From Amphiscolops sp. MND2022 (lineage: Eukaryota), in assembly GCA_964187785.1 (NCBI GenBank), contig OZ076409.1, positions 17,114,001 through 17,178,000 of the forward strand: a DNA stretch of 64,000 nt, in the 5' to 3' direction. The notes under the pieces were generated by a model. The model did no database searches, had not been told where the DNA came from, and saw only the letters and a program-made list of their open reading frames with translations. The first letter of the stretch is position 1, and the number at the start of each line of letters is the position of its first letter. The translations under genes and the position numbers were made by a program. Positions 12,117 to 37,858 of this stretch are shown here, piece by piece.

Positions 12117-12393
12117 TGTTATACGGTACACATACCGAACCGATCCTTTCGGTTGACACTGTCAATCACAAAACTTTAGATCATTCTCATCATAGACATT
12201 TATTTATACATATGCTTACATATTAGTAAATATTAGTAAACAACATATGTTACTTTGCCTTATATCGAAATTGCATCAGTTAGATACTTTTCGTAGCTAG
12301 AGAATAGATCGTTTCACTGACAGTATTTATGTTCTGAAAAGATACTTTTAAATAAACTTATTTGTTTTCTTATTCAACCAAGAATATAGAACA
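12117..12393 (+). repeat. 5' LTR (277 bp)
   Basis: Direct repeat of 17656-17922; carries one extra TATTAGTAAA copy. Confidence 0.95.
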
Positions 12394-12404
12394 TGGCGCA
12401 GTCA
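12394..12404 (+). promoter_or_regulatory. Primer-binding site TGGCGCAGTC, tRNA-Ser-like
   Basis: TGG immediately after the LTR CA; resembles the complement of a tRNA-Ser 3' end. The tRNA identity is inferred. Confidence 0.7.
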
Positions 12405-12446
12405 GAAAATTGAAATTACCAAGAATATTTCAACAAAACAAAGAAA

Positions 12447-17138: not shown

Positions 17139-17642
17139 GTGGTACGGAACACACCGTAACCACCGATACCGGAAAAATAATCCACCGAAAATTTATTTCG
17201 GAACCGATTATATTTCAGAAAGACAAGAAGGCAACACCGAAGATCGGAGACAACATCAACCCAAAAAACCGACATTGCCTGAGGGTCGATGGAAAATACA
17301 CCCAGTGGAACGAAATCCTCAGGGATGTATTAAACGGAAAGCTGAAAATCGTACAAAATCAACGGGCTGAATCCGACTCTGAGAGTGAGGAGGGTGAAAT
17401 CGAGGAGGAAGAAAGCGATTTCGAAAACCACGACACCTCAGAGAGGAATGGAAAATACAAACTCGTAACAACATCACCAGAAGATGAATTGAACCTTCAT
17501 ACGGACAGTGAGATAAATCCGGGTATCACCGAGAGATGGAACAGTCGAAAGGAGCCGCCGAAACCACTGACGAAGCCAGCCGACTTCATTCGAGAAAACA
17601 CCCCAACACCGGGAACCTCGAAACAGTAACCGAAAGGAACTT

Positions 17643-17655
17643 AGAAGGGAGGAAA
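17643..17655 (+). promoter_or_regulatory. Polypurine tract
   Basis: AGAAGGGAGGAAA directly before the 3' LTR TG. Confidence 0.9.
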
Positions 17656-17922
17656 TGTTATACGGTACACATACCGAACCGATCCTTTCGGTTGACACTG
17701 TCAATCACAAAACTTTAGATCATTCTCATCATAGACATTTATTTATACATATGCTTACATATTAGTAAACAACATATGTTACTTTGCCTTATATCGAAAT
17801 TGCATCAGTTAGATACTTTTCGTAGCTAGAGAATAGATCGTTTCACTGACAGTATTTATGTTCTGAAAAGATACTTTTAAATAAACTTATTTGTTTTCTT
17901 ATTCAACCAAGAATATAGAACA
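17656..17922 (+). repeat. 3' LTR (267 bp)
   Basis: Direct repeat of 12117-12393, followed by TSD TCAGG. Confidence 0.95.
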
Positions 17923-19644
17923 TCAGGATTGTCCTACTTTCTACATTAAGTTGATCAAATTTTACTTTGGACCCTGAAAATAGATCGAAAACTCAAACAA
18001 CTCAACTATCACATTAGTAGCGTTTTCAAGTTTTCAACCTGGAGATGCAATTGTGAACGAGGGCTCGGTGACGTTTGATTGGTGGTTGGTTTGAGTCAGT
18101 TCTGTGTCGGCGATCCATTCAGAATCAGTTTTGTTTTCCATTTTCATCAACACGTACCAGGAAAGAATCTCAGAAAGAAGACCATAAAGACAAAATACGC
18201 TTAGAATTTTTTCAGCTGTGAATGAATTGAACCAGTTTTACCTTACTCAAAATTCTATATCTTTGAAAGTTGTAAAATTACGGTTTTTAACCACATTTGA
18301 AACTTCCGTGATTTGGAACTTGGAGCTGACCAAATTAAAGAAGCTGGTGATTTATGTTTATATTTATCTAAGGGAAAACGAATTTAAGAGCCCCCATCGC
18401 ATGGAAAAGCAGTTGATTTACATTTATCAAAGATAAACAAAGAAACTTCTTTCTAAGAGCTTTCATTGGCTTTCATGAACAATTTTCGATTTTTATAAAC
18501 CAGGTTCATCAACAAAATGATGAATATTTATTTCTGAAAGAGTGAATGCCATGAAAAACTAATACAAAAATCATCAACTTCCTTCAGATCTGCAAGAATG
18601 ATCTCAACTAATATAAAGGTTTCGTGAGTAAAAATTTATTCAAATATTAAACTATCATTATGAATTAATAACCCCGATCAACCAACTTTTGAATAAATAA
18701 CTTAACCAAGTTGTCATAAAAAAGACACTAAAAACGGTCAACTTACTTTCATTCATAGTACCGACTTTTTCATATGGCTTAAAATTCAATTTAATAGGAA
18801 ATCATAATGGTTTTCAAAAGATTAACATTTAATTTCTCATGAATAATTGAATGTTTTTTTTGAAAATTGAAGTGACACTGTTGAAAAGAAGCATTATCAT
18901 TTCTAGTGCACTTTTTTCATCAGTGTCACTTCAATGTCTTGTGGAAATTGACTTTTCCTGTGGTACCAAAAACATCACCCGGATCCAACGCCACATGCGA
19001 TTTCCATGCAATTCCATGAATGGATCCATTTTTGTTCGCGGAAGGAATCATATGGTTCGAACCATATGATTCCTTCCGCGAACAAAAAGATATGGAAATA
19101 ATGGATGTCATGATTCCATGCATGGAATCGAATGGAAATGAGTTCATCATATGGTTCTATGCGACTGAGATTCTATGTGAATGGAATTGCATCGAAGCCT
19201 CATGGGTTCAGTTCTACGTGGTAACATGAACTTCAGTTCAAAAGTATATTATTCACAACTTATTATCCAGGAAAACAAAAATACAAGACCAAGATCATGA
19301 AAAAGTTCCCGGCATGACTAAAACATAAATCATGGATGAATCATGAATGGAGTTCCATGATTGACAAACACGAGCAGGGTGTGAAATATATATAGGTCTT
19401 GAAATTCTATGAGGATTCAAACTGTTCTCCAAGGTGCTATGCCAAGATGCTCTTGAAGTCATCGAACATTTGGGCCGAAATATCAACATCACTTAAGCAC
19501 ACAAAGTTGTACTATCTTCTTGGACGTGCTTCAAGTGTTAGAAGCATTCAAGAACGCTGCCTGATTTTTTTAAATGAAAAATTTAGGTTCTTCATGGACT
19601 TTTCTGACAGTTGCTCTGTCGTTTCGCTGCAGTTTTAAATACTC

Positions 19645-19751
19645 ACGGGGAGCATGGCGTAAACGGGGAGCATGGCGTAAACGGGGAGCATGGCGTAAAC
19701 GGGGAGCATGGCGTAAACGGGGAGCATGGCGTAAACGGGGAGCATGGCGTA
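19645..19751 (+). repeat. Six tandem copies of the 18-bp unit ACGGGGAGCATGGCGTAA
   Basis: Directly visible; the last copy runs into the SINE A-box. Confidence 0.95.
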
Positions 19752-19990
19752 GTGGTTGGAGCATTCGGCCTATACTGGGGCGGTATCAGGTTCGAATCTC
19801 TCTCAACTCACCATTGTTGGGCCTTGAGCAAGTCTTTCATCCCTAGCTTAGTGGTATGGTCAGTGACAAAAAATAACGCATTTGGCGGAGAAAAGCAAAA
19901 CAAAAAGAGCAACGGTGAGCAGTCAGACCTTTGTGACCTTGAGCAAGTCACTCTGAAACCACAGCTTCAAGTCCACCATTGCTTGACCAC
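19735..19990 (+). mobile_element. tRNA-derived SINE
   Basis: A-box TGGCGTAGTGG (19745-19755), B-box GGTTCGAATCT (19789-19799), then CCTTGAGCAAGTC twice (~19822, ~19937), a motif typical of SINE central domains. The 3' end is approximate. Confidence 0.7.
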
Positions 19991-20818
19991 TTGGCTGCAA
20001 ATATGGTACCATAGCTTGCTATGGGGTGATAGTATCCGAAAGGGCGCCGACTTAGAAAAGCAGAACTGCTTATCGGCGTCCACTCCGCGGAATTGGGGAA
20101 ATAAACTTTCTTCTTCTTCTCACTACAATCAATGCACTTTTAAGTGCGCGTTTCTGGGGCTCTGAGTGGGCAAAATACTTCCGAATTGATTCTCTGCTGA
20201 AGATCAACCACCAATACCTAAAAATGATCTCGAAAAGAAACCCAATGAACAGTGGTATTTTTTTGTGAATTTTTGAAGGATTTGAAAGAGAAGCTGAACA
20301 ATGTACTCCTTTGGATGCTTCTCTTTGTAGCAAGATCTCTAATTCAATTTTTCTTCAATTTTCAATTTATACAGCTAGAAAGAAAAGTTTAGTGAGCTCT
20401 AGAAATACGTTATAACACCTTCTTCAAGCCACACTTACTGAAATAATTATCAAAACATGACTTTCATTATTTTTCGCTCCCTTTTATTTTCCACAGAATA
20501 GAAATTCACCACATGATCTGCCTTTTAACCCTAATTTTGCAACGTTCCTATTTTATAATCAAACCAGGTTCTTACACACAGGTCAACTAAAAAATAGGAA
20601 AAATTGCAAATAAAATTTTATGTTTTCAATTTTCATGCAATTTGTGAATGTAGGTGTAGGGTTGAACATCCACATAGTTCACGACAGTCAGCCATATGGG
20701 AAACAAGACGGGAACGTCTAAAGTCTGCGCTATATCTAAGGCTCAAAAAGCTCAAAATACTTTTTTTGAAAAAATAACGTGAAATTTTTGAATTTTTTTC
20801 TTTCAGAAAATGTCGCAT

Positions 20819-22555
20819 TGTCGCAGGCTGCCGCTTGCGATGGGACACGTATCACAACGACTACTAACGAACAAGAAGCCGTACCAGGTACTCTACCCAC
20901 ATTTTAGGAGAATTATTCAAAACTTTTAGTAAAACTCACTGTTGTTGTATTATATTCATTATGTATTCGGATTGAATATTAGTCTGATTAATACTCGTGT
21001 TAGAATTCAAACGGTGATGATTATGTTTATATGATGAATTGTTTAGCAGTGACGTAATGCAATAAAGGCAAGTGTAAAGCTTAAAGGAAACGAGTTCAAG
21101 TGAACGAAACTCTAATTCCGGAGACGTCACTTGAGCTCATTTCATTAGCCAATCAGAACGCTCTATCCTGCTGTGCATTATACTGTCATATTTGTTTGGC
21201 CGTATACGGCCACTTGACGCTATACTTTATTTTGTAAGCGATCCAAAGGCAAATGGCCGGATTAGGCCATTCCAACTATTAGCTTGTGTAATTGTTTAAT
21301 TTGAGTATGCACGTTATTTAAAGTCATGTAAGATTATGTTCGTATTTAGAAGGCGCTAATGGGGCCATTTAAACCCAATTGATGCAGTTGTGACCACCAG
21401 TCATGAAACACTAAATACTAGTCCAGTGGACTAAACCGGTCACTTTAATTGGCTGGTATCTTTGTCAAATGGCCGAATTGGGCCATGTTCACCTTTTATT
21501 AGTGCATATAATTAGAGTTGCTATCTGATGAATTAGCTTGCGTGTGCAGGCACGTGCCTTAAATACCTCACATACCTGTTGACACAAATATTACTTTGAA
21601 GTGTCTGAACATGTATTTGCCTTGATGTTAATTGTTACAGGAATGCGGACTAAACCGTCCCCTGTACTTTGAAGCTATCATGAGTATGTAATTGAGTACA
21701 TTCCTCAGAAATTCTTCCGACCCTAAATTCCTGAATCACTTTGATGCAATAGCTATTTTTCAATCCTCGTAAAATCTCATGATCCTTTAAAATATGTAAA
21801 CATTTCAATAATATGTGGAAAATGTGAGTGTCATAACTCAGGAGGTGTATATATTCACCCCCCTCCTGAGGGGACACAATTTGCTTTCTTTCACAACGTT
21901 CAGTTCATTAATATTACCAGTTTTCCGAACTAATTCAATATTAACCTCGGACTTTCTTTCTAAATGCCTACTACTAGGAAACAGAAGAAAGCAAGGAAAT
22001 CTAGAGAAGCAGAAATGCTATCAGACATTGAGAATTTGGATATTATGCTCGGAGGAAATCACTTTGATAGAAATGAGAGAAGTGAAAGTGTGAATAGTAA
22101 TCAGGCCGGTAGGCCAGAAAGCTTATTTGGAGATGAATTTGGAGATGAGAATGAGAATGAGTTCCCAAACCCGGGAAATAATGGACCTAGCCCAAATACC
22201 GAATTAGGCCAAAATTCAATCAGAGAGAGTTCAAGTGTTGAGATCAATAGACTGTCGAGTGAGTTAAATTCCCGTATATCTCGAGAGATGGATGAAATGA
22301 TGAATAGCGTCAGTGTTCAGATTCAAAGGGCCATAAATGAGGCAATCAGTAGTCAAATTTTGCCTCAAATCCAAAATTCAGTTATGGCCGGGTCGGGACA
22401 GTTGACCAAAGAGAGATGGAACGTTCCGGCTGAGAGACCAGAAGGATATTCCGAAGTGCTGCAGAACTTAGAACCTAGGAACAATTCTAAGAGTAAGCAG
22501 GCCAATGACCGTCTCAAAGACGGATTCACAAGCACGAATTCTCGTGCTTACGACA
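20819..22555 (+). repeat. 5' LTR (1,737 bp)
   Basis: Direct repeat of 35279-37016; ends CGACA followed by TGG. Confidence 0.95.
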
Positions 22556-23685
22556 TGGTGACAGGAGAAAACGAATCTCCAATCGAAGTTCCTGAGTTTC
22601 TCACGGGACGAATGCCATCCACCAGTCATCTCAACAGATCAAACGATGACTTTCTCCTGCTCGACACGACGATCCCAGCGCAAAAACGACCCGCTCTGGC
22701 ACCAGAACAAGACCCGATCAACAAGCTAGCTGACGTCTTGACAAGTATGCAGAATCGCCCGACAGCCCAGCAACTCACAATCCGCCCAGTCAACTCAAAA
22801 ACTATGACGTTTGACGGCAAAAGTGAGAAGTTCGAGCTGTTTGAAGATTTATTCCTTACGATGATCAAGATGCAGCCTGACATGACGGAACAAATGAAAA
22901 TTAATCATTTTCATTCCTTGCTGAGAAAGAATGCACTCCAAACATTCAGAAACATCAGCACTGCAAATAGACAAACTCTTGAGGACGTACTCGTCATTTT
23001 CAGACGAAAATACGTCAAGCCTGAATCACAGGCAACTGCCAAACATAAATGGCACCGCCTGGTCTTCGATCCTAACACGACCAAATTGCCAGATTTTCTT
23101 GAGGAGCTCAATCAAGGAGCAGAAAAGGCCTTTGGAGACAATGCTCAGAAAATGATTGACAGTCTCCTATATGCCAAACTGCCACCAAAGCTCAAAAGAT
23201 CAGTAAACATGGCTAGACTTGAGAATGGCTCGTACGATGAAATTGCCGCTCATCTAGAAAGAGAACTAGAATTGAATGCACTTGAAGAATCAGAAGACCT
23301 ACCCATGGCGTCAATGACATCATCGGTCACGAAACCAAAAACTGTTCCTTCTAATACACAAATAAGTGATATTACGTGCAATTATTGTAAGGAAAAGGGC
23401 CACATGGTCAAAGATTGTGAAAAATTAAAAAAGAAAAAGGAAAAAGATGCCCAACAAGGCAAAACGACTCAGAAGAAGACCTATCCTAAATGTGGTACTT
23501 GTGGCAAGACGAACCATCCGGAGGAGAGATGTTGGCAAGGGGCAGGTGCGCACCTTAAACCTAAACGCACCAGACCAGAAGACTCGTCGGACAATGACCC
23601 TGACTCCAAAACATTAAAATCGAACTACAGACCAGCATCTTCCAACAGCCAATCCTCATCAAGTAAAGATGAGTCAAAAAACTAG
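21964..23685 (+). CDS. Gag (573 aa), initiating inside the 5' LTR
   Basis: Capsid-like FDGKSEKFELFEDLF region; two Zn knuckles, CNYCKEKGHMVKDC and CGTCGKTNHPEERC; the first ~197 codons lie within the LTR. Confidence 0.92.
   Translation: MPTTRKQKKARKSREAEMLSDIENLDIMLGGNHFDRNERSESVNSNQAGRPESLFGDEFGDENENEFPNPGNNGPSPNTELGQNSIRESSSVEINRLSSELNSRISREMDEMMNSVSVQIQRAINEAISSQILPQIQNSVMAGSGQLTKERWNVPAERPEGYSEVLQNLEPRNNSKSKQANDRLKDGFTSTNSRAYDMVTGENESPIEVPEFLTGRMPSTSHLNRSNDDFLLLDTTIPAQKRPALAPEQDPINKLADVLTSMQNRPTAQQLTIRPVNSKTMTFDGKSEKFELFEDLFLTMIKMQPDMTEQMKINHFHSLLRKNALQTFRNISTANRQTLEDVLVIFRRKYVKPESQATAKHKWHRLVFDPNTTKLPDFLEELNQGAEKAFGDNAQKMIDSLLYAKLPPKLKRSVNMARLENGSYDEIAAHLERELELNALEESEDLPMASMTSSVTKPKTVPSNTQISDITCNYCKEKGHMVKDCEKLKKKKEKDAQQGKTTQKKTYPKCGTCGKTNHPEERCWQGAGAHLKPKRTRPEDSSDNDPDSKTLKSNYRPASSNSQSSSSKDESKN
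23676..23682 (+). promoter_or_regulatory. -1 ribosomal frameshift slippery site A AAA AAC (gag to pol)
   Basis: X XXY YYZ heptamer directly before the gag TAG; the -1 frame is open and in frame with the pol ORF at 23784. Confidence 0.8.
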
Positions 23686-26600
23686 CTTCGCCACGACTCC
23701 ACTATGACCAACTAGTCTCTGTCCGACAATACATCAAATCGGACCCTCCAACTAAAAACTTTCATAACTATCAGCAACAATTAATGGGCTATCCTTCTGT
23801 TGTCTGGCAGCAGCAGATGGAAAAAGCTACCATTATTACTTACAATAATACCCATTTGTTCCAGAAACCAATTCCTGTATGGGATCCTGATTACACATCT
23901 GCTTTCAATAGCCGATTCAGGCCCATTCCCTTGGTAGACGATTACAACCCTACCTACATAGACCCCGATTATGGACGAGATCCCTATTGGGACACGGAAC
24001 TCTACAACCAAGATCTGCTACAATTCCAATACGTCATTGATGATATCGAACTCTACAATAAATCAGCCCATGAAAATCCTCCAATCACACACAACAAGAA
24101 AACTAGAGCATTGATTGAAACCTGGCAAATGAATGATGGCACAAGCCATCCGGTGTTCCCAAATCCCCTGGGGACCGAGACTACCGAAAACATGGAAGAA
24201 ACAGTCCCACAGTCGCTATTAGAAGAAAGTCAGTTCCAAAACGTTCTTATTACCAGAGATGGTGAACCGGACTGCATACCCCTGCCCACCAACATAAATC
24301 TGAAATGCAAGAAACGCATGCTATATTTCCCCATGGATTTTGGGGAATTGACCATAGACGGACTTACCGACACTGGTGCATTATCCAGTGCAATCCCAGA
24401 GATGGACCTCCGGAAAATCAGACTCTTATCGCCACAATCAGTAATCCGGGAAGGTCCGCCTCCAAACTTCCAGATAATGGTCGCAAATGGGCAACTAGAG
24501 ACTCCCAAGAGTACAATAGAGCTCAAATTCGAAGTTGGTGACATAGAGTTCCATGAAATTTTTATAGTAATGGAACACTTAACAGGACCGATTATAGGAC
24601 TGATGTTTCTACAGAGAAATCATACAGTACTGGACATGAGACAAGGAATACTGAACTTTCCGTTCTTTTCAATGCAGCTCAAAACAGCTGATCATAAATA
24701 CTCGAACGTGCTAGAGCCAATTCTAAACCCTACTGAAATAACCATTCCGCCAAACGACAGAGTCCTGATTAGGACCAATTCCTTATTATACCCTGAAAAC
24801 ACGGTCACAGGAATTTTGCAACCGAGCGACCTTCTCCATGAAGAAGGCGACATCACATTCTGTCCAGCCTTGGTCACCTTGAATGACGGCAATATATTGA
24901 TACCAGTGAATAACTTCACAGACCACCCTTACAAGCTCAAAAAGGGACTCCATATTGCTAGTTTTTCAGTCATGACGCCAGAACAAATGAAATATGTCAA
25001 ACCGGTAGACCCGGCATCAACCTGGCATTTGTTGCAAAACGACCAAGAGCAAGCAGCCCATTACGTCAGTAGCCTGATCAAGATGAACAAAAATTCACAA
25101 AACTCCGAAAACTACTGGTTCCCAACTCCGGAAAATCCAGGGAATCCAGAAGAACACACTCCAATCCAGAAAAGAATCCTCCGCGAACTACAAGCCCTAC
25201 AGGACCTAGAATCCCTTGATCCCACGAAAGACGAGGAATCTAGGGAAAAATTCTTGGGAAATTTTGATTGGAAAGACTCCACCCTAACCCTGGAAGAGAA
25301 AGCCAAAATTGAAGAATTGCTAGTGGAATTTCACGACATTTTTGCGAGACACAGATTTGATATAGGCATGAATGAGGAATTCAAGGTGAAATTGACGCCT
25401 AAGGACAATTCCCCAGCCTATAGCCAAAGCCTCCCTGCGCCAATAAACTTGAAAGGGGACATATTAGTCGAATTAGCCATGCTCCATAAATATGGCATAA
25501 TAACTACTTTACCGTTCTCGAAATACGCCAGCCCAATATTCGCGCAAAAGAAACCAAACGGGAAACTGAGACTTCTGGTTGACTTGAGAAAAATCAACAA
25601 CCTAATCTCTGATGATTATATAAACAATAACCACCCAGTCAGTACCTTAGTTGATGCCGCTCAACACTTAGCGGGGAAAAAACTGTTCTGTAAATTAGAC
25701 TGTTCACAGGCATACCACTGCCTGCCGATGGCTGACCAGCGATCAATTGAAATGTTGGCCTTCAATTTCGCCAGCCGCACATTTGCCTACAGACGATTGG
25801 CACAAGGCCTTAGTAGGGCGCTGTCCGCATTCTCCAGTTTCATGAGGGAATACCTCGACAAAGTCATAAAAGCGGATCAGTGTGCCCAGTACGTGGACGA
25901 TATCGGCATCGCAGCCAACGACGCCGACCATCTCATTGCTAACCTAAGAGCAACTTTCAAATGCATTCAGGAAGCAGGCCTTAAATTGACGATGCACAAG
26001 TGTCATTTTGGTGCCACAGAAATTGATTTCCTCGGACGAACGATTACTCCACAAGGCGTCAAACCCCAACGGCAGAACTTTCAGAATTTTCTAGAAAAAA
26101 CCAAATTTCCAAAGTCGAAAAAGGCTCTGCAAAGATATTTGGGTTTCCTGAAATACTACCGAAACTACGTCCCAAGACTGTCCGAACGCCTTGCTCCATT
26201 CTACAAGATGCTGAAAAATGACGAAAAAGTCCTAGTATCAAGAGAATTGGTACAGCAATTTGAGTAAATCAACCGAGCTCTGGACAAATGTTGCGACTTA
26301 GCCTTACAACAACCCATTCCTAACAAGCAGATTGCACTCATGACAGATGCAAGTTTCGGAGCTGCAGGATACGCAGTACTCTTTGAAGATGATCCGAGTC
26401 AGAAATTCACGTCAATCCGCAAATCATATGCCCCGGTCGCTTATGGTTCAAAAACCTTCACCCCAGCCCAGATAAAGATGTCAATTTATGCAAAAGAATT
26501 TCTTGCGATTTATTTCGCATTCAAAGAATTTGGGCATATTTTTTGGGGAGCGCCGAAACCGGTCATAATCCTAACCGACAACAAAGCCGTAACAAGATTC

Positions 26601-28894
26601 TTTCAGACGAAAATCGTACCCCCAGCCCTGTGGAATGCGTGCGACTATGTAATTCAGTTCAATTTTGTCATTGCGCACATCCCAGGAGCACAGAATACGG
26701 CAGCGGATTACTTGTCCCGATTGGAAGCAGACCCAAAGGACAAATTAGTAATGAAAATCCGAGAAGATGTACAAACGTTGCCAATAGAAATAAACGTCCA
26801 ATCAGCAGGAGTCTCACAGGAAGAGCAAATCTTCTACACCAACGACGACGATGAGACTGAAGAACAATATTGGGCGAGGAAAGAAGCAATCAGGAAAAAT
26901 CCTGTAATCGAAGACCCTACAGTTACAATACAAACTCTTTCCACTAACCTAGCCAAACAACAACCTTAAATACAAATCCGATTGAGGAAAACAAACCAGA
27001 TAATTATTGAGCAATCCAAGGATGCAGTATTACAACAATTGAAGGCGAAACTCCTTCATGAAGATTACTCAGAAAACATACTGCAACAGGACGCTCGGTA
27101 CAGGCATTATGCTAACAATCTGGAACGAATTGTCATCAAAGAAGACATCCTCACAAGGCAATATTTTGATGAAACAGGGAATGTAAAGTACCACCAAATC
27201 CTTCTCCCGCAACATTTGCTGCAGGAATTACTCCAGTCCTTACACGGGACAGCTCACAAGCATCCGGGTATTTCAAAAATGCTGCAGGAGATCAGACAGA
27301 GGTATTACTACCCTAACATGGCGAAATATGTTAAAAAGTGGGTAGAAGGGTGCGAACAATGCGCAAAGGACAAACGAGTCCCAAATGCAACAATCACGCC
27401 CGAGCTACTTAACTTGCCGGAATGGGACCTTGGACCCGAAGACGCAATGCAAATTGACTTATTGCCGAACCTTCCCCCAAGTGGAGGATATGAAAATGTA
27501 TTAACCGCGATTGATGTCTTTTCTCGATATTTGTTTGCATATCCGCTCACAGATGCATCAGCGATCAATGTAGCCAAAGCACTCATTGATATTATGACCA
27601 AACATTCCTACTTACCGACGACGCTCATTACGGACAAAGGAACTGCCTTCACTTCCACGATTATTGCAGAAATTACCCAAATTTTAGGAATTACCCTAAA
27701 ATGTGCAACAACAAAGCACCCGCAAACTATCGGGAAATTGGAGCGCACACATGCCTCATTGAAAACAAACTTGAAAATGGCATGTGGGGAATATCGCCGA
27801 CAATGGCACAAATACTTGCCATTAGCAGTTCTGAATCACAATACTAGCTATCATGCCAGTATAGGATGTGAACCGACAAGAGTATTCCATGGAAGAATCC
27901 CATACAACATCTTGGATCACAAGCTTGGAACAAATCCAAACGAGCAAATCCATCCGACTACTGAGTTCGCAGAAGAAATCCAAAATCGGACAAAGCTCCT
28001 TATCGACAAGACGAAGCAAAACATCATGCAGTCATATATCAAATATAAGGAGTATTACGATCGAAAAGCCAAAGCCGCCCCACTCAAGGAGGGCGATTAC
28101 TGTTTTGTATTACAGCCAAAAGCGGACCACCAAGGATCCAAAATTCCCTTCAGAGATTATCGATGGGTTGGACCATTCATAGTCCAGAAAGCTTTACCTA
28201 ATGAGAACTACATCGTCCGCAGACTTAATACGAATAAAACGCAGATCTTGCATCGAATTCGTCTCAAAAAGTTCGTTCCTAATCAGCCGCTCGAGGACAA
28301 TTATCGAGAAGAGAGATTGCAGCTGGACGAAGGCATAATCATTCCACAGGACGACTTATACGTAATAACGTGGGACACAAATTTTGGCGAACAGCTAGCC
28401 ACAGGAGGCAGCGAGCCGATTCCGGCTAGCTTGACGAATGGCGAACAGCCGAACACGGCACAAGCGAATACAAGTGATGCAAGCGAGAATGGAAGTGATT
28501 ACATAATCACGACTGAGTGTCCGAATGACGTCAACGACGCACCACGCAGTAGAAATGAAGAAATGGAAAATGACGTCAGCAATGCTAATGAAGCTAATGA
28601 AGCCAATGAAAATGAAAACCCTGATTGGCCAAATCCGGCCGTTCCCCCAAAGAATCAAGAAAAATCTCTGCCGAATACGGCTGAAGGATTGAAAAATGAC
28701 TTTCCAGAAACTTTCCAGAAAGAAATCCGATCAATGAAAACGATGCACAAAAGTCTCCAAAAAGGGGGGACGATATTATCGTGCCCGAAATATCAAAAAA
28801 TGATGCTAGAAATGAAAGTCTGAGTCCTAGAGGAGGGAAATATAATCTCAGGCCTAATCCTAATCCAAACTATTCAGAAGACTTCAGATACTAA
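23682..28894 (+). pseudogene. Pol (protease, dUTPase-like segment, RT, RNase H, integrase), disrupted
   Basis: LTDTGA, QYVDDI, TDAS, H..HKHPG...CEQC, QID/TDKG/LER. In-frame TAA at 26265-26267 and 26967-26969. An 11-bp tandem duplication (28699-28720) shifts the C-terminus, which otherwise ends GKYNLRPNPNPNYSEDFRY* at 28894. Confidence 0.93.
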
Positions 28895-29121
28895 GAATTG
28901 AATTTTCCCGGAAATGGGAATTCTTTTCTTTTAGCTTTGTTTTTCCAAGCCCCTCTGAGAACTTCTTTTGAATAAATACTGGGGCATTCCAAAGGATCCC
29001 TAATAAAGAATAAATATGGGATCAAATCATCAAGAAAACAAAGTAGAGATATAAATACGGCAATAAAACAGAAGAAATTAACAAGTTTACAACACGGAAG
29101 TACATAAATACATATGTACAT

Positions 29122-32100
29122 TTACTCATTAGAACTTGATTGGGGTCGTCTACCCGCTGTTGGAGAACTGGAAAATCCAACAAGGCTGCTGCTCTGACGT
29201 TTCCTTTTCGTCTTACTGGGGACCTTCAGGGCGGAACCATCAACAACTGATGAGGCATCGTCAGGGGACATCCGGACCGTGCCTGTCTTCGGACCAGAGA
29301 TGACAGACTTATAAGTGTTCAGCAGAGACTTGAAAATAATTGAACGACCAAAAGAATCTACGTAGGCCCAAGGGTCATACTCTGGACTGAACGCAGACCT
29401 ATCGTAGTCACTTGAAAGCAGAGAGAACTTACTCAAACATTGATCGCTGACACAATGTGAAATTGACCCAGGAACATTAACAAGATAACTCTGCCCAGGG
29501 AGAATAACATCGGTAGACCGACCTTGATGATCGTTGGTATCAATACTACCAATCGTAACGACAGGAAGCTGAGAACTGGGGCTAGTGATACACAAACAGC
29601 ATAACTTGAAGAGGTAGAGTAAATGAGTCCGCTTCTGTAGGAATTCAAGCCCCATGAGGAAATCAATCAAATCCTGAGACTCACTGAGGAGGGTGAAGTC
29701 GGCAGAATGGGATACGCGCAAATGATCTATGAGCCCTAAATACTCATCTCGATAAATGAACTCAGCATCACCGGTTACCCAAGAACGAAGTTGGAATGTA
29801 TTGTAGAGCAACTCGAAGTGACGTAAAGCAGAAGCAGGTGGTTGTTTGAATAACACAACAGGATCGAAAGCAGCAAGTCCTTTGATGATGTGGGTGTTGA
29901 GCCCAGCTTGCTTGTGTAATCCATCCAAAAGGTGGCCTATATACTTGAGTCCGTCTGTGATGAACTCCTCCTGAAGTTCTTTGGCAGTCTTTTGAATAGC
30001 AGCCGCTTCGCTCTTCTTGCCCGAATGCAACCCCTCTGCCCTCTGTTTGCAAGCGTGAGGAACTTTACTGGACAATCTGAGCCTGGTAAGGAAGTCGTCT
30101 CCGTCCATAAGGGTCCCGTCTGCTGATTTGAAAGAGAGCAAATCGAACCAGGAATCTTCGGAAGGGATTGTGTCCGCAGTGAATGCTCGAGAACAAATCC
30201 GATGTATGAAGCGGCTTGTCTCTCCACATACATAGAATGAGGCATCGCGGCGTTGGGCAAAGTTGACAGAGAAACTGGATACGTCTACAAATACAAAACC
30301 ATGCCTAAAATGGGATACTACCTCAACTTCTATACCTAACAATAGGTATACTAACAATCGTTGACCAGCTTGGAGAAGAAATCCAACTTGATGGTGAAAA
30401 ACTCATCACAAATGAGTGACCACTCGAAACTTTGCACCTGCAACAAAGAAATCAACTCAATGGGCATTTGGTTGTCAGACCAAAGATGATCCACTACGGG
30501 GATTTAGGGATACTGTACATAGTGGTGCTACATGACAATTAAAGGGACGCAATTACTTACTCTACCCCTCACGCCTTGTCCTTGTTGTCGAGGTGCATGT
30601 ATTGTCAAAAACCTCTGTACAGCCTTCCATTCACGAATGAGTTCCAGACAGAGGACTGGCAAAGTCAATAGGTTCAACTTGCAGGTTCGTATACCCTAAA
30701 CAAGACCTATGGTGTACTTACTGTATCAATATCACTGATCCATAGCCCTCCACAACCTGAACCCGATCAATACCCTACAGAAACCCGGATCATGCCTGTT
30801 CAGAGAAGAAAGAAATCACTTACGTTGGATAATTCGGGACTCCGCATCGCCCATTCCTCCCTGAGAGAGCCTCCTAGAGAGATGACAAGCCCCCTTAACA
30901 CTGAAAAGAAATCAATGTGTCCGAAGATAGAGCGACTGGACTTATGCATCAGAGTCTCTAAGGAAAATTGGCTGAATCGGAAACAGGACTGGACTCCCTT
31001 TGAGAAGTAATCCGATTGATCAACCACACGGATAAAATCGGCGGGACACCCAGAACTGGCGACTATGTCAACTTTAGGCGAAATTGAGGACAACAACCGA
31101 GCAAGGGATCCCAATTCCCCGTTTAGATTTGGAGAAGGTAGCCCACTCCGACAGATGAAGACCCTGCATAGGGTGTTTTCCTTCCAAAACCGGACTGACA
31201 TGAAGCGATAACTGCCCACGTCCTCGAACTCGAGCCCAAGGCATTGCTCCTTTGTGGTGTGATTGGCTATGTCATCCAGAGCACAATTGAAGAAGTGTTG
31301 GAAAATGACCTGAAAAGGACATAAGGGAAATCAACTCCTGGGTGTGACATAACCGCCTAAAACGGCAGCTTAACGATATGATACTTACAGAGAATCGCTC
31401 TGCACTCCAGTCAAAGTCACATAGTGCAGCCTGAAAGTCCGTGTATGAACTGACTCTCGTCCATAGATTCCGGAGAAGATGTAAATCACCGTGACTTTGG
31501 AGGAAATCAGCCGTAACACACAATTGGGTCCGTGCTCGCGAATCAGGCGTGACCAAGGGATCAGTTCTGCCTTTGATGAAGTCGTCATAAAAGGGGAATC
31601 GCTCCCCTATGTCAACTAATTCAGCATGTATGAAGCGAGGCATTTCTTTGGCCAACTCGAGCCTGTTCAGGATTCGACCGTCTCGCCCTCTGACCCTATG
31701 TTGAACTTTCCCTGTGACTGGGTCTACGCTTTTCAAGTATTCATAGCGCCAGCGCTGGTCCTTGCGCAGATGTTTCTCAGTTCGGTGGTGACGAAGAATT
31801 TCCTCCGGGCCTTTGGAACGTATGGAGAAATTCTTTTTACTAATATGGCACCATACCATATGTGAATTGTGTAGAGGGTCTGCAGGTCATGAGATAAAAG
31901 ACCGGGTCCACCCAATTTTTGAGAAAAACTCTTCTCTCATTGGCACTCCTCGTCTCTTCACCCTTTTCTTCTTCTGAGGTTGTTTCTTCTTAGAGCCTGT
32001 ATGGGTCTTTTCAGCAATGGCGTGATCCCTTACTTGCGACAAAGTTTCATCGAGACAATTGGCATCACTGGTATCAGGATTTTCCAGAGATCGACTAGAA

Positions 32101-33563
32101 GGCCCCGGTACTTCACTCGGATCCTTAGGCATGGAAGTTCCTGCTCTGGCAAAGTTTTGCTCAATTAAAGCTAACTCCCCTGCACTGTCCGATTCCTCAT
32201 GAAAGGACGTGTCACCTGATTCAGTTCCTCCACTCATTTCTGCGTCAGCCTGAGAATCATAGCGGACTGGGGTAGTGCACCCTTCGGAGCCACTATCTCC
32301 ACTGCTTGAAGGATAAGGCGTATGTGCGCGTCTGAAAGTTTTGAATTGATCAGTCCGTGACTTGGACGTCGCTGGGGCTCCTTTCACTGCCGATACAACC
32401 ATATGCTCCATCGTGTTATAAGACAAACTCACAGTCTCATTGGTGAGCACCCTAAGGAGGTGGTACAACTTCGGTTCAGTAAGTGTTATTACGGGGTGGC
32501 CCTGCGGCAAAGTAATGGGCTTGGCTTCTCCAAAATACTGTTTCAAAGTGGCTCTACTCCTTCCAGACAGGTTATGTAACTTGGGACCAGTGACCCCAAG
32601 CTGGGAGGAGGAAGTCCCAGGGACCTGTGGGTCCTGGATGCCAAAATCGGATTCCTGCGTCTCTTCTGCAACTGAGTCCATGCTTCTCAATGTGTCCCGG
32701 TAACCATACAAATCTATCTGTTGATCACTACTCTCGTTCAACTGGTCCAACTCACCATAGTCAGAGACGTATGTCGTCGCTGTGACTGTTCCAGGCAACG
32801 GGGGGGCATCGTGGACAGAGGAACTGTTGTCTTCGTCTTGCTGGAGGAATGACACCTTACTTGTCTCATTGGGGACTCCTTCAACAGGCAGCAATTCCGG
32901 CAAGGTTGCATCAGGAGGCCCAGCAATCTCAAGCCCTGATTCCAATTGAGACAAACTAACTGTGGGGACTGCGCAACTGGCGTGGGGTATTGGAGTGCTA
33001 GACCGAGTGATTGGCATGTCTGCAGACAACTCAGTGCCGTGGGAGGCCTTCATTGCGCCCTCTCGCCTAACTTCTACTATTTCTTCCACTATCTCGTTAG
33101 ACAACTGCGTTTTCTGCATATGTTCGACCATCTCGTCTGCATACGCCGTAACGTCAATGTTACTGTCTACGCTATGTGGGGAGATGACCTCAGCAACTTG
33201 ATCCTGGCCCGAACGTTCAGATGATTGGGAATTGGAATTGAGTCCTTGAGACCCAACTGATGGACCTACTAGTGGGGGTAGGATCCTGGTAATCTGGGAA
33301 GAAGAAACCAATGGGAGAAATGGAGGGGGAGAAGGAACCAAGTTTCGAGTTGTACCCGGAACGGGAACGGAATTCATGGATGAAATAACTTCGATGGGAT
33401 TGGCGGAAGCAGGGTTGGTTGGTGTATGAGAATCATCTAAATTCTGGCGATCTAAACAGAAAGAGATGAAATTTGGCGGTATGCTTCCTCGATAGAAATC
33501 CATTTGCCGCGTCAGAAGACTTCCGGAAGCAGTCTTGAAAATTTGAATGAAACGTGCTATCAC
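29122..33563 (-). CDS. Antisense spliced accessory gene (~1,350 codons): disordered N-terminus, basic NLS-like patch, Zn finger, hAT-transposase-like body; one nonsense codon in this copy
   Basis: Exons 33563-31389, 31309-30824, 30695-30561, 30437-30356 and 30284-29122, joined by GT-AG introns of 79, 128, 123 and 71 bp, give one frame. Internal TGA at 31889-31887. The true start and the exon 3 acceptor are uncertain. Confidence 0.75.
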
Positions 33564-34575
33564 GTGTTCTCTGATGGAAACAGGAAGCGCTTAATGAACG
33601 AAATTTAGCCCTGATCAAGCCAAGTTAGTTCAAAATAAAAATCCAGACCAACCTGTATTCGAAGACATCCTGCTGAGATAATTGAATCCACTGAGGATCT
33701 GCCCAAATTCGGATGAGAAAATTGGGGATGATGGCCGGACTCGGACAACAGATGGGGAGGGGGCTCGGATGGCTACGGAGAATGAAGGAGAAGTCCACAA
33801 CTGTTATGGAGCCCCAGGTAGATAAAAGGACTAGCAAATGGTATAAGAATCGAGTATAAAGGAATTCGAATGGTAATGGTAGTACAAATGAAATAAATAA
33901 ACAATGGAAGAAATGAAAGTTGGAGATCGTGGCTGAAGGTTCACCAGACTAATATTATTTGATTATCTACATATTTAAATCTGTACACGGAGTCTGCCAG
34001 CGAAATGTGCAGGGCGTATCTCGCTATTTACAACCTTGTTACAATTAATGGCCGATTATGGCCGTTAACCCCAACTTATGTTGCCGTTTTGTTCAGTTTT
34101 CCTAGTTACCTTAGTTAGATTTTCGCCACTTCAGTTATTCAAAATTATTATTTTCCGTCATCTTCATTATTCATTTTTTCAAATTTATCGAAGCTCAAAT
34201 TTGATTGGCTGAAGCCATTTCAGTGAGTTTCATCCGACAAGTGCCGTTAATTGCTATCAAGCTTGATGTTGATTACCCACTTGAAGTGGAATTATTTGTT
34301 GTTGTCAACTTAACACCTCTTCGCATACTCACTTGAGAGAGTGAGAAATGGGGGTTCCATTCCGAATTTCAAAGGATAAATAAGCCGCTGAGAAATTCCA
34401 TTTTAGAAAGTTTACGACGGATCAGGGCGATTGACCATGGTCTCTCCCGCCGAAATGGAACTCCGGGAAAATAGCCTGAATTGGCCTGAAGAAAAATTTG
34501 ACAAATTCATTCAACTTTGAATCCTGCAAGCAACAAGTCGCTCTGCGAATCAACAAAATTGCAAAAAAGATAATA

Positions 34576-35367
34576 ATGGCTAAATTTAACTTAGCAAGAA
34601 AGCTTTTCGGCTTAGAAGAATCGGACTCAGAAGCCTCGGTAAATTCAGTCATCTACCTATCGAGTGACGAGGAGGAAGACACCTCATCTACCTCATGGGA
34701 TTCCGACTGGTCCACGGACACCGAGGCTATCATAGAGAGAATCGAGAGGGAAGTTAAGTCAAGCCCAATTTTGATCGCAGGTCGCAAGATGACTGTGGAG
34801 GGGCAGGCTACAGAATCAGCAGCTGGACCAAGTAATCTTCAAATGCGGCCGTCTTTGACTCCGAAATTGGGATTCAAACACTTTGACGAGAAACTCGTGT
34901 ATGCGCCGATGAGGAAGGCAGAAAGAACCCGGATAGAACTTTGCAACACAGTTCTACCAGTGTTGGAATCGCCGTTGTCTCCGCCCGAGCATGAGAGAGG
35001 GCCGTCCCAAGACGTGCTCATGGAACAGCCAGTTAGCACCAGCTTCCACGCATCTTACCACATCCAACAAGTACAGCCGTATTCGGATCTTAGTAAACAG
35101 TTGGGCCGTGGATGTATGGTCTGTGGAAGGTCAGTGGACGAAATTAAACAAGAGAAGGTGAATTGCTACGTGAGTAGATCAACACCGCGCAATGAACCGG
35201 CATACATAACGGACTTGAGGAGAGAAGCCTACGAAAATGGTCTAAATGCCGGGAGTCTTCTTTTCTTAGCACCCGCAGTGTCGCAGGCTGCCGCTTGCGA
35301 TGGGACACGTATCACAACGACTACTAACGAACAAGAAGCCGTACCAGGTACTCTACCCACATTTTAG
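34576..35367 (+). CDS. Accessory ORF of unknown function (263 aa from the first ATG), ending inside the 3' LTR
   Basis: Open frame with an acidic Ser-rich N-terminus (VIYLSSDEEED) and CMVCGRS; its stop lies 89 bp into the LTR; AATAAA at 35521. Confidence 0.65.
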   Translation: MAKFNLARKLFGLEESDSEASVNSVIYLSSDEEEDTSSTSWDSDWSTDTEAIIERIEREVKSSPILIAGRKMTVEGQATESAAGPSNLQMRPSLTPKLGFKHFDEKLVYAPMRKAERTRIELCNTVLPVLESPLSPPEHERGPSQDVLMEQPVSTSFHASYHIQQVQPYSDLSKQLGRGCMVCGRSVDEIKQEKVNCYVSRSTPRNEPAYITDLRREAYENGLNAGSLLFLAPAVSQAAACDGTRITTTTNEQEAVPGTLPTF

Positions 35368-37016
35368 GAGAATTATTCAAAACTTTTAGTAAAACTCACT
35401 GTTGTTTTATTATATTCATTATGTATTCGGATTGAATATTAGTCTGATTAATACTCGTGTTAGAATTCAAACGGTGATGATTATGTTTATATGATGAATT
35501 GTTTAGCAGTGACGTAATGCAATAAAGGCAAGTGTAAAGCTTAAAGGAAACGAGTTCAAGTGAACGAAACTCTAATTCCGGAGACGTCACTTGAGCTCAT
35601 TTCATTAGCCAATCAGAACGCTCTATCCTGCTGTGCATTATACTGTCATATTTGTTTGGCCGTATACGGCCACTTGACGCTATACTTTATTTTGTAAGCG
35701 ATCCAAAGGCAAATGGCCGGATTAGGCCATTCCAACTATTAGCTTGTGTAATTGTTTAATTTGAGTATGCACGTTATTTAAAGTCATGTAAGATTATGTT
35801 CGTATTTAGAAGGCGCTAATGGGGCCATTTAAACCCAATTGATGCAGTTGTGACCACCAGTCATGAAACACTAAATACTAGTCCAGTGGACTAAACCGGT
35901 CACTTTAATTGGCTGGTATCTTTGTCAAATGGCCGAATTGGGCCATGTTCACCTTTTATTAGTGCATATAATTAGAGTTGCTATCTGATGAATTAGCTTG
36001 CGTGTGCAGGCACGTGCCTTAAATACCTCACATACCTGTTGACACAAATATTATTTTGAAGTGTCTGAACATGTATTTGCCTTGATGTTAATTGTTACAG
36101 GAATGCGGACTAAACCGTCCCCTGTACTTTGAAGCTATCATGAGTATGTAATTGAGTACATTCCTCAGGAATTCTTCCGACCCTAAATTCCTGAATCACT
36201 TTGATGCAATAGCTATTTTTCAATCCTCGTAAAATCTCATGATCCTCTAAAATATGTAAACATTTCAATAATATGTGGAAAATGTGAGTGTCATGCCTCA
36301 GGAGGTATATATATACACCCCCCCTCCTGAGGGGACACAATTTGCTTTCTTTCACAACGTTCAGTTCATTAATATTACCAGTTTTCCGAACTAATTCAAT
36401 ATTAACCTCGGACTTTCTTTCTAAATGCCTACTACTAGGAAACAGAAGAAAGCAAGGAAATCTAGAGAAGCAGAAATGCTATCAGACATTGAGAATTTGG
36501 ATATTATGCTCGGAGGAAATCACTTTGATAGAAATGAGAGAAGTGAAAGTGTGAATAGTAATCAGGCCGGTAGGCCAGAAAGCTTATTTGGAGATGAATT
36601 TGGAGATGAGAATGAGAATGAGTTCCCAAACCCGGGAAATAATGGACCTAGCCCAAATACCGAATTAGGCCAAAATTCAATCAGAGAGAGTTCAAGTGTT
36701 GAGATCAATAGACTGTCGAGTGAGTTAAATTCCCGTATATCTCGAGAGATGGATGAAATGATGAATAGCGTCAGTGTTCAGATTCAAAGGGCCATAAATG
36801 AGGCAATCAGTAGTCAAATTTTGCCTCAAATCCAAAATGCAGTTATGGCCGGGTCGGGACAGTTGACCAAAGAGAGATGGAACGTTCCGGCTGAGAGACC
36901 AGAAGGATATTCCGAAGTGCTGCAGAACTTAGAACCTAGGAACAATTCTAAGAGTAAGCAGGCCAATGACCGTCTCAAAGACGGATTCACAAGCACGAAT
37001 TCTCGTGCTTACGACA
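35279..37016 (+). repeat. 3' LTR (1,738 bp), including a duplicate of the gag N-terminus (36425-37016)
   Basis: Direct repeat of 20819-22555, followed by TSD CGCAT. Confidence 0.95.
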
Positions 37017-37858
37017 CGCATAGTGCCGAAAAAATTGAAAGGGGAGACCCTTTGGGCTTTTCGAAACTTCAGTTTGCTGTAAAATATCAAAAAATTTGAA
37101 TGGGGACTCTTTTGAGACATTAAAAATTTTTTCGAAAAAGTCGCACAATGCCGAAAAAAAAATCGAAAGGGGGGACCCTTTAGTATCGTCTGGTTTTGTA
37201 AGTTACGTTAAAAAAGTAAAAATGAAAGGGGGGACCCTTTTGCAGTCATTTCCGCTGACCGGACTTGGCCTCATGGTTGTAGTTTTAGTAGTTTCGATTG
37301 CAAGAAAAGTGGACCAATCAGAGTGAGATTGTAGTCTGACGGAAAAAAAGAAAAAAACTAGCCACTGTAATAGTCGGGTTCTTTTCACTAGGAAAGCGCC
37401 GACTAAAAAATACTAACTGAGCCGCGTTTTCGTTTTTTTTCTCCACAGTTTACCATGTTCCAGTGTCATACCTAAATTCAATGGGTTCCTCCATAGCCCC
37501 TTGACTAATTCAACTGACATCTACTTGTTTCGTGCCATTTTCTGAAACTTTTTTAGGTTGTTACCAAAATGATCAAAATGACACCAAGATAGTTTGGAAA
37601 ATTAAAAAAAAGATCTGTAACGTTTCACTGCACTTTCTGTTGTTTTCAAATCTTTGTGTACATTAGAATATTCAAAGACTTCCAAGACAACAGAAGAAAG
37701 TTTCTCCAATGATATCAAAATTAGAAAAAAAACAATTTACCAAATTTTATACTATTTCTTCAACTTGTGTACAGTTATCGAATACTTTCGAGAGATAGGT
37801 AATCCGAAATGGTTCGAGCCGAGGAAACCACCGAGGAAAAATTCGAAACGTGTTTCGA

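What the first reader, a model, noticed from the sequence alone, without database searches (positions are those of the whole stretch)
21964..22575. Gag starts ~590 nt inside the LTR and is translated through the LTR end and PBS
Seen: the ATG at 21964 is followed by an unbroken frame across ...TAC GAC A|TG GTG ACA, so the att end and PBS are coding. The 3' LTR holds the same 197 codons, which run into flanking DNA (224-aa ORF 36425-37099). Established: gag usually starts after the PBS; yeast Ty1 starts only a few codons inside its LTR. Inference: every 3' or solo LTR could express a truncated Gag N-terminal or fusion protein, perhaps a copy-number control or gene-fusion source.
Basis: partly seen in the sequence, partly recalled or inferred. 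Interest (0 to 1): 0.7.

Follow-up and report, generated by a model that had tools for sequence, protein, structure and literature searches.

The report
Retrotransposon end repeats that encode protein
A large family of retrovirus-like jumping genes has moved the first third of its shell-protein gene into its end repeat, so every leftover repeat carries the code for a shortened, probably self-sticking piece of that protein, but nothing yet shows that the piece is made or does anything.

Summary
Observation confirmed. A Ty3/gypsy element (20819-37016; 1737/1738-nt LTRs, CGCAT target duplication) opens gag 592 nt inside the 5' LTR and reads through the att end and a tRNA-Leu-type PBS. This is a family trait. 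118 of 120 listed relatives read [YH]D-M[VL]T at the junction. In 204 of 206 truncated relatives the residue after D is one an A-initial codon can give, as expected if the LTR ends in the same place. The LTR-coded part is conserved like protein: a basic N-terminus and a 62-residue helix modelled as a parallel self-associating coil (score 0.79, best control 0.01). New here: the other LTR end is also coding (a conserved 263-aa ORF ends 89 nt inside it) and there is no polypurine tract. The tails of truncated ORFs look like random flank, which weakens the gene-fusion idea. Copy-number control is plausible but untested; no RNA data could be had. Gag starting inside an LTR is known (Ty1; Candida Tca5, about 100 codons), and this scan noted it before in microsporidian mini-LTRs on other DNA. 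Verdict: new, extreme variant of a known layout.

The parts
20814..20818 (.). Left target-site duplication CGCAT
20819..22555 (+). 5' LTR, 1737 nt, TGTCG...CGACA
21061..21066 (+). Only AATAAA on the + strand of the LTR (LTR position 243), upstream of the gag start; candidate poly(A) signal
   Evidence: function inferred
21837..21870 (+). Hairpin (9-bp arms) with a TATATA loop; weak candidate for a gag promoter; no ATG between 21825 and 21963
   Evidence: function inferred
21964..23685 (+). gag, 573 aa, intact in this copy
21964..22059 (+). Gag aa 1-32: conserved basic N-terminus and short helix, inside the LTR
22213..22398 (+). Gag aa 84-145: conserved long helix, modelled as a parallel self-associating coiled coil, wholly inside the LTR
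22550..22555 (+). att end of the LTR, read within Y196-D197 and the first base of M198
22556..22567 (+). PBS TGGTGACAGGAG, read within M-V-T-G; 11 of 12 bases complementary to a listed tRNA-Leu(CAA) 3' end, 10 of 12 to a Leu(UAG/AAG) end
   Evidence: the host tRNA was not available
22810..23286 (+). Capsid-like helical region of Gag (aa about 283-441), outside the LTR
   Evidence: weak DUF1759 match below the Pfam cut-off; low-confidence helices; 0.85-0.98 identity to relatives
23374..23532 (+). Two CCHC zinc knuckles
   Evidence: first: weak Pfam zf-CCHC; second: read from the sequence
23676..23682 (+). A AAA AAC slippery-type heptamer in the -1 gag/pol overlap
   Evidence: frameshifting inferred from established retroviral usage
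23673..28894 (+). pol (PR-RT-RH-IN), broken in this copy by stops at 26265-26267 and 26967-26969 and a frame break near its 3' end
28971..29067 (+). Four AATAAA just after pol; candidate internal end of a gag-pol mRNA
   Evidence: shuffle mean 0.64, P 0.002; region chosen after looking
29122..33590 (-). Antisense coding region in four pieces (567, 204, 176, 426 aa), no Pfam match
   Evidence: relatives not searched
34576..35367 (+). Conserved 263-aa ORF of unknown family; its last 89 nt lie inside the 3' LTR
35264..35278 (+). Place of the usual polypurine tract: 6 purines of 15, coding
35279..37016 (+). 3' LTR, 1738 nt
36425..37099 (+). Truncated Gag ORF: 197 LTR codons plus 27 flank codons
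37017..37021 (.). Right target-site duplication CGCAT

Best explanation
This is a Ty3/gypsy family whose LTR overlaps genes at both ends. Gag is translated from ATG 21964. Its basic N-terminus and an oligomerising coiled coil are coded in the downstream part of the LTR, its capsid and zinc knuckles in the internal region, and the att end and PBS fall in a linker, where the DNA signals dictate the residues ([YH]D from the inverted repeat, MVTG from the PBS). Shown: anatomy, family-wide conservation of start and junction, protein-like conservation. [quoted passage not shown] The truncated ORFs of 3' and solo LTRs are then an unavoidable by-product with random tails. Speculative origin: LTR edges are set by where the two primers sit, so moving the PBS into a gag linker and the plus-strand start into the 263-aa ORF would give both overlaps and the missing purine tract. 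Transcription is unresolved: either one start near 21870-21900 with a non-canonical poly(A) site inside the coding part, or a BARE-like split, with genomic RNA starting before LTR position 243 and a separate gag-pol mRNA starting near 21880 and ending at the AATAAA cluster after pol (about even odds).
For: LTR ends, duplication and PBS. MPTTRK starts 101 of 120 listed relatives, and 118 of 120 read [YH]D-M[VL]T. Relatives at 28-35% identity keep a like N-terminus and VTG. Residue after D is A-codon type in 100 of 100 and 204 of 206, against 44-47% at tail positions 2-5. In 16 divergent rows of 65, identity is 0.77 (aa 1-32) and 0.65 (aa 84-145) against 0.31-0.32 in the linkers; neutral open-frame simulations reached at most 0.56 and 0.55. 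The only confident part of the Gag model is helix 84-142 (pLDDT 74-88 by block). Three copies of aa 84-145 score 0.79, best of 3 controls 0.01; the mark was reached by 21 of 30 solved pairs and 0 of 23 single chains (eukaryotes 17 of 29, animals 7 of 16, and 0 of 30); runs share at least 96% of contacts, pLDDT at least 87. The 263-aa ORF keeps V at the LTR edge in 107 of 111 rows. Tails are random in length and unique.
Against: No transcript start, poly(A) site or ribosome data. M1 has a weak context (-3 T, +4 C) and some relatives were called from M18. All relatives are proteins without DNA, so LTR edges there are inferred and no dN/dS exists. Protein searches see only open frames, so they cannot count decayed LTRs. 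The simulation treats related rows as independent and overstates significance. The complex score is a model's confidence, with a copy number I chose, outside its two-copy calibration, and may reflect memory of coiled coils. The LTR part is less conserved than internal gag (0.57 against 0.85 in 84 rows). The split of differences between the two LTRs (1 of 10 in the coding third) is not significant (P 0.096).
Confidence: 0.75

Rival explanations
1. Built-in copy-number control: 3' and solo LTRs express the 197-aa piece, which joins full-length Gag through the coil but brings no capsid or zinc knuckles, and so spoils particle assembly more as copies pile up. This adds to the best explanation rather than replacing its anatomy.
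For: The coil lies wholly in the LTR and is modelled as self-associating. Short forms are plentiful (1340 clusters of 30-314 aa, against 378 of 315-1003 aa; the short set also holds broken copies). The only AATAAA of the LTR lies upstream of the ORF, so a transcript starting near 21880 meets no canonical signal before the flank. Truncated Gag restricts Ty1 and Ty1' by associating with particles (PMC7175516, PMC10951436, passages).
Against: No expression evidence. The family has expanded into many sub-families, some with clusters of 60-281 members. p22 and Drt2 are capsid C-terminal pieces. If the poly(A) site lies inside the coding part, these RNAs would lack a stop codon. Binding between the piece and full-length Gag was not modelled as such.
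Confidence: 0.2
2. Gag really starts at the ATG made by the LTR end and PBS (22555), and the upstream frame is a relic or a separate product.
For: That ATG is present in 119 of 120 listed relatives and would give a conventional Gag. M1 has a weak context.
Against: The ATG is forced by CA|TGG at the DNA level. The upstream frame is in phase with gag and conserved in a protein-like pattern. Two relatives have L or I in its place (P0575, P0212), though they may be decayed copies.
Confidence: 0.05
3. The LTRs act as a source of new fusion genes by joining the Gag N-terminus to host sequence.
For: Each insertion does create a new in-frame tail; 12% of 206 tails reach 50 aa.
Against: 11% is expected from random host-like DNA, and only one tail start occurs twice among 147, as the same protein on two contigs. 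Spliced fusions would not be seen by these gene calls.
Confidence: 0.08
4. The repeat is not an LTR but a local duplication that happens to include part of gag.
For: No polypurine tract before the second copy; the repeat is long.
Against: TGTCG...CGACA ends, CGCAT duplication, adjacent PBS and the same break point in 204 of 206 independent truncated relatives.
Confidence: 0.01

Closest known systems
Tca5 of Candida albicans (Ty5-like, Ty1/copia; PMC4139406, passages read)
   Same: ORF opens deep inside the left LTR (first ATG 382 bp into a 685-bp LTR, about 100 codons by my arithmetic) and reads through the PBS; true start not established there either.
   Different: Copia-type, single ORF, Met PBS, purine tract present, low copy with very few solo LTRs. 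Here: gypsy-type, 197 codons holding a whole conserved helix, second coding LTR end, no purine tract, very many truncated copies.
Ty1 of Saccharomyces cerevisiae with p22, and Drt2 of Ty1' (PMC7175516, PMC10951436, PMC4551931, passages read)
   Same: gag begins in the LTR and the PBS is coding (recalled; not confirmed in the passages seen). A truncated Gag restricts the element in trans.
   Different: Only about a dozen codons lie in the LTR (recalled). p22 starts at nt 1038/1068 from an internal transcript and holds the capsid C-terminal part; it is not LTR-borne.
BARE1 of barley (Ty1/copia; PMC3735527, abstract and passages read)
   Same: Model for one of the two transcription layouts: a long LTR with an upstream start for replicated RNA and a downstream start for translated RNA that lacks R.
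   Different: BARE gag starts after the LTR. Two starts are measured there and only suggested here.
Retroviral genes that overlap U3 of the 3' LTR (HIV nef, MMTV sag; recalled)
   Same: The 263-aa ORF ends inside the 3' LTR and reads across the plus-strand priming position.
   Different: Those viruses keep a purine tract; the 263-aa protein has no Pfam match or clear fold match.
Gag N-terminal coiled coils of Arc and related gypsy-derived Gags, and of L1 ORF1p (recalled)
   Same: An oligomerising helix ahead of the capsid or RNA-binding part.
   Different: No sequence or fold match was found; hydrophobic period here is 3.8-3.85, not the 3.5 of a heptad coil.

Membership tests
Ty3/gypsy LTR retrotransposons (Metaviridae) | Direct LTRs with TG...CA ends and a 4-6 bp target duplication | tested here: met
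Ty3/gypsy LTR retrotransposons (Metaviridae) | pol order PR-RT-RH-IN with gypsy-type RNase H and integrase | tested here: met
   Pfam RVT_1, RT_RNaseH, RT_RNaseH_2, Integrase_H2C2, rve above cut-off; protease and Integrase_p58_C below it; integrase look-alikes are gypsy-type
Ty3/gypsy LTR retrotransposons (Metaviridae) | tRNA primer-binding site next to the 5' LTR | tested here: met
   11 of 12 and 10 of 12 to tRNA-Leu ends listed in supplements of PMC13524379; host tRNA not seen (one search found none in the window)
Ty3/gypsy LTR retrotransposons (Metaviridae) | Polypurine tract before the 3' LTR (usual, not what defines the family) | tested here: not met
   6 purines of 15; the P-A-V peptide there is kept in most relatives
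Ty3/gypsy LTR retrotransposons (Metaviridae) | Gag with capsid fold and CCHC knuckle | tested here: inconclusive
   Knuckles visible; capsid region modelled at low confidence, PNMA2 capsid only at E 1.1
Named gypsy clade (Mag, Osvaldo, Tor, CsRN1 and others) | RT/IN phylogeny with named references | not testable with these tools
   All relatives are unnamed; no reference set could be fetched
BEL/Pao | Pao-type RNase H region and three-knuckle Gag | tested here: not met
   No Pao-type Pfam in pol; two knuckles; only a sub-threshold DUF1759 match in Gag
env-bearing gypsy elements (errantivirus-like, Tor) | Sense-strand env ORF with signal peptide and transmembrane helix | tested here: not met
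   Best 19-residue hydropathy 1.31 for the 263-aa ORF and at most 1.58 for the antisense pieces; no Pfam match
Gag-derived restriction factors (Ty1 p22, Drt2) | Contains the capsid C-terminal domain | tested here: not met
   The LTR-coded piece ends at aa 197; the capsid-like region begins near aa 283
Gag-derived restriction factors (Ty1 p22, Drt2) | Can associate with the element's own Gag | tested here: inconclusive
   Self-association of aa 84-145 is supported by a model only
Gag-derived restriction factors (Ty1 p22, Drt2) | Is expressed and lowers mobility in trans | not testable with these tools
   No RNA or assay data

The most novel reading that the evidence does not exclude
The family carries a self-limiting device in its LTR: each 3' and solo LTR holds the promoter, start codon and whole oligomerisation coil of Gag but no capsid, so the dose of an assembly poison grows with the number of past insertions, and recombination to solo LTRs keeps the brake while removing the engine. 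The same family primes plus-strand DNA inside a coding sequence without a purine tract and runs separate transcription units for gag-pol, an antisense gene and the 263-aa gene.
Probability: 0.2. Interest if true: 0.82.

Novelty: new variant of a known kind. Interest (0 to 1): 0.55.

Why it matters
LTRs are usually treated as non-coding (PMC2238898, passage). Here both edges of a 1.7-kb LTR, the att sites, the PBS and the plus-strand priming position are all coding and have stayed so across a family that has diverged to about 30% protein identity in this part. It gives a clean natural test of two open points: whether solo LTRs can act as a counter of past insertions through a trans-dominant Gag piece, and how plus-strand synthesis starts without a purine tract. 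In practice it also explains more than a thousand orphan ORF calls of about 200 aa as LTR remnants, not host genes.

Tried and rejected
No whole genome is held for the window. No DNA locus of a relative was found: Gag alignment against viral, metagenome and genome contigs (0 of 106, 196 and 10 pattern matches confirmed), RT against viral and metagenome contigs (0 of 8 and 87). The Atlas gave no usable hit for aa 1-197. Pfam gave nothing for aa 1-215 at E 0.01; a weak YpjP match on the helix (5 of 41 rows, below cut-off) is taken as a generic helix match. Solved-structure searches for Gag gave only weak knuckle matches and no Foldseek match at E 0.001. The 263-aa model is mostly low-confidence (pLDDT 52); best Z 6.2 over 53 residues is a common helical hairpin. 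RNA folding after the slippery site showed no strong hairpin. The LTR-to-LTR difference test was not significant. P0136, a Gag N-terminus fused to the LTR-start peptide, is single: none of the 14 other listed members of its 42-member cluster has that junction. Literature: literal phrase searches for gag starting in, or coded by, the LTR gave no description of this layout in an animal gypsy element; they match exact wording only and do not cover Repbase or subscription journals, and I recall, unchecked, Repbase entries of gypsy families whose LTR codes the start of gag. PMC4399242 is not held; PMC2774666 had no hit for the terms; PMC3601003, PMC4402516, PMC9503155 and bioRxiv 10.1101/2025.03.14.642691 were seen as passages and do not describe this layout (the preprint's supplements were not seen). 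Scan notes by sequence and by place gave nothing.

Full report
Observation. A 1.7-kb direct repeat lies at 20819-22555 and 35279-37016, 99.4% identical. It starts TGTCG, ends CGACA and is flanked by CGCAT on both sides; TGGTGACAGGAG follows the first copy. ATG 21964 stands 592 nt before the end of the first copy, right after an in-frame stop, and opens a 573-aa frame; the second copy gives a 224-aa frame, 197 codons from the repeat and 27 from flank. None of 20000 shuffles of the 592 nt was stop-free in that frame, and its purine bias by codon position resembles internal gag.

What the element is. Pfam gives RT, RNase H and integrase of gypsy type above cut-off, in the order PR-RT-RH-IN, with weak protease, knuckle and DUF1759 matches; the integrase's nearest clusters are gypsy-type. 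gag and pol overlap in the -1 frame at A AAA AAC. pol is broken in this copy by two stops and a late frame break. The PBS matches a listed tRNA-Leu(CAA) end at 11 of 12 bases and a Leu(UAG/AAG) end at 10 of 12 (rows of the supplements of PMC13524379). The host is unidentified; an Asx-like gene in the window suggests an animal. A second gypsy element in the window (12117-17922) is conventional: short LTRs, ATG after the PBS, purine tract present.

Is the overlap a family trait? A search with aa 1-215 found 378 hits among 703 candidates of 315-1003 aa; the best 120 were listed, all unnamed. 101 of 120 start MPTTRK; 118 of 120 read [YH]D-M[VL]T at the junction, one has YY and one leaves gag after D. 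No DNA came with them, so I tested the LTR end another way. The LTR ends GAC A, so a frame that leaves it must continue with an A-initial codon (I, M, T, N, K, S, R). Of the best 120 of 1340 short hits (1368 candidates), 100 had D followed by something other than MVTG, 14 ended or diverged earlier, 3 read on into gag and 3 lacked the D; all 100 obeyed the rule, one of them being gag with M changed to I. Over all 488 Gag-type proteins held, 206 had such a tail, 164 read on into gag and 118 could not be classed; 204 of 206 obeyed, against 44-47% at tail positions 2-5, and 47 of 49 among those under 70% identical to their nearest full-length Gag. The widest search (540 hits, best 150 listed) reached proteins of about 30% identity with a like N-terminus and, where they read on, VTG.

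Is the LTR part kept as protein? Against 97 rows under 70% identity, aa 1-40 and 81-140 are conserved (0.63-0.86) and the stretches between are not (0.28-0.39); overall the LTR part is less conserved than internal gag (0.57 against 0.85, 84 rows). In 16 divergent rows picked from 65, identity was 0.77 and 0.65 in the two blocks and 0.42-0.43 of changes were conservative; 300 neutral open-frame simulations reached at most 0.56, 0.55 and 0.38 (rows are related, so this overstates certainty). The Gag model is poor overall (pLDDT 43) except for one helix, aa 84-142, with a hydrophobic period of 3.8-3.85. Three copies of aa 84-145 fold as a parallel bundle: score 0.79, best of 3 controls 0.01; the mark was reached by 21 of 30 solved pairs and 0 of 23 single chains, and on eukaryotes by 17 of 29 (animals 7 of 16) and 0 of 30; runs share at least 96% of contacts, pLDDT at least 87. 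This supports self-association and does not show it; I chose the copy number, and coiled coils may pass from memory.

The other end is coding too. A 263-aa ORF (34576-35367) ends 89 nt inside the 3' LTR. It has 205 hits among 1549 candidates; of 120 listed, 111 have a residue at the LTR edge and 107 of these are V, which the LTR's TG start requires, and the C-terminus is conserved. Where a polypurine tract should be there are 6 purines in 15. The protein has no Pfam or clear fold match and no clear membrane helix. Between pol and this ORF lies an antisense coding region in four pieces, not followed up.

How it most likely works. Gag is made from M1 as basic head, linker, coil, linker, capsid, knuckles, with the att end and PBS in the second linker. 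[quoted passage not shown] Each coding half is thus copied from the place where it works, and selection on Gag alone explains its conservation. The RNA layout is open. The only + strand AATAAA of the LTR is at position 243, 154 nt after the stop of the 263-aa ORF and far upstream of gag; 27 ATGs precede the gag start, none in the last 139 nt; a TATATA lies at 21848; four AATAAA follow pol. This fits either a single start near 21880 with a non-canonical poly(A) site in the coding part, or separate RNAs for replication and translation as in BARE (PMC3735527, abstract and passages). All of these are motif matches.

Truncated ORFs exist in large numbers, but their tails look like random DNA: median 15 aa against 14 expected, 12% against 11% reaching 50 aa, KS p 0.18, 146 different starts among 147. 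That argues against a rich source of fusion genes, though spliced fusions would be missed. Copy-number control gains a mechanism from the coil, and has precedent in Ty1 p22 and Drt2, which however are capsid pieces from internal starts (passages). Against it: no expression data, a much expanded family, and possible stop-less RNAs. I give it 0.2.

Comparison and novelty. gag opening inside an LTR is known from Ty1 (recalled) and from Candida Tca5, whose first ATG is described as unusually deep in the LTR and which has very few solo LTRs (PMC4139406, passages). Earlier notes of this scan report the layout in microsporidian elements with tiny LTRs (unchecked). Literal phrase searches found no report for an animal gypsy element, but they miss other wordings, Repbase and subscription journals. 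What is distinctive is the sum: 197 codons with a whole domain, both LTR ends coding, no purine tract, family-wide. Verdict: real, a new variant of a known kind, interest 0.55; 0.82 if the LTR-borne brake is shown.

Noticed in passing
window 34576-35367 (+): Conserved 263-aa ORF of unknown family (acidic serine-rich start, CxxC, helical hairpin at aa 187-229) reading across the plus-strand priming position into the 3' LTR; no polypurine tract.
   Followed up: partly
window 29122-33590 (-): Antisense coding region in four pieces (567, 204, 176, 426 aa) with no Pfam match; the 204-aa piece starts with a Cys/His motif that recalls zinc fingers of hAT-type transposases (recalled resemblance, untested).
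   Followed up: no
window 28971-29067 (+): Four AATAAA in the 226-nt spacer after pol, where pol and the antisense gene converge; three more at 33634, 33892 and 33896.
   Followed up: partly
window 21835-21857 and 36295-36318: Five of the ten differences between the two LTRs cluster in 23 nt at a hairpin with a TATATA loop; mutation hot spot or gene conversion.
   Followed up: no
window 12117-17922 (+): A second, conventional gypsy element: LTRs of about 270-280 nt, TCAGG duplication, one open 1563-aa frame, PBS TGGCGCAGTC, purine tract present.
   Followed up: partly
protein P0136: Gag N-terminus joined in frame to the peptide coded by the LTR start: a single LTR-to-LTR junction near the LTR end (nested or tandem insertion).
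   Followed up: partly
window 21428-21438 and 21647-21657: An 11-base word GGACTAAACCG occurs twice in the non-coding LTR, and TGGCCG three times; possible factor-binding sites.
   Followed up: no
window 54475-57264 (-): Intron-free 929-aa host gene with an Asx homology domain.
   Followed up: no
window 19627-19769: Tandem array of an 18-base unit, about 1 kb upstream of the element.
   Followed up: no
window 37859-39883 and 45636-47623; 40787-43984: A 2-kb repeat pair at 73% identity around ORFs that include an RT domain (42674-43984); a further, older repeat element.
   Followed up: no
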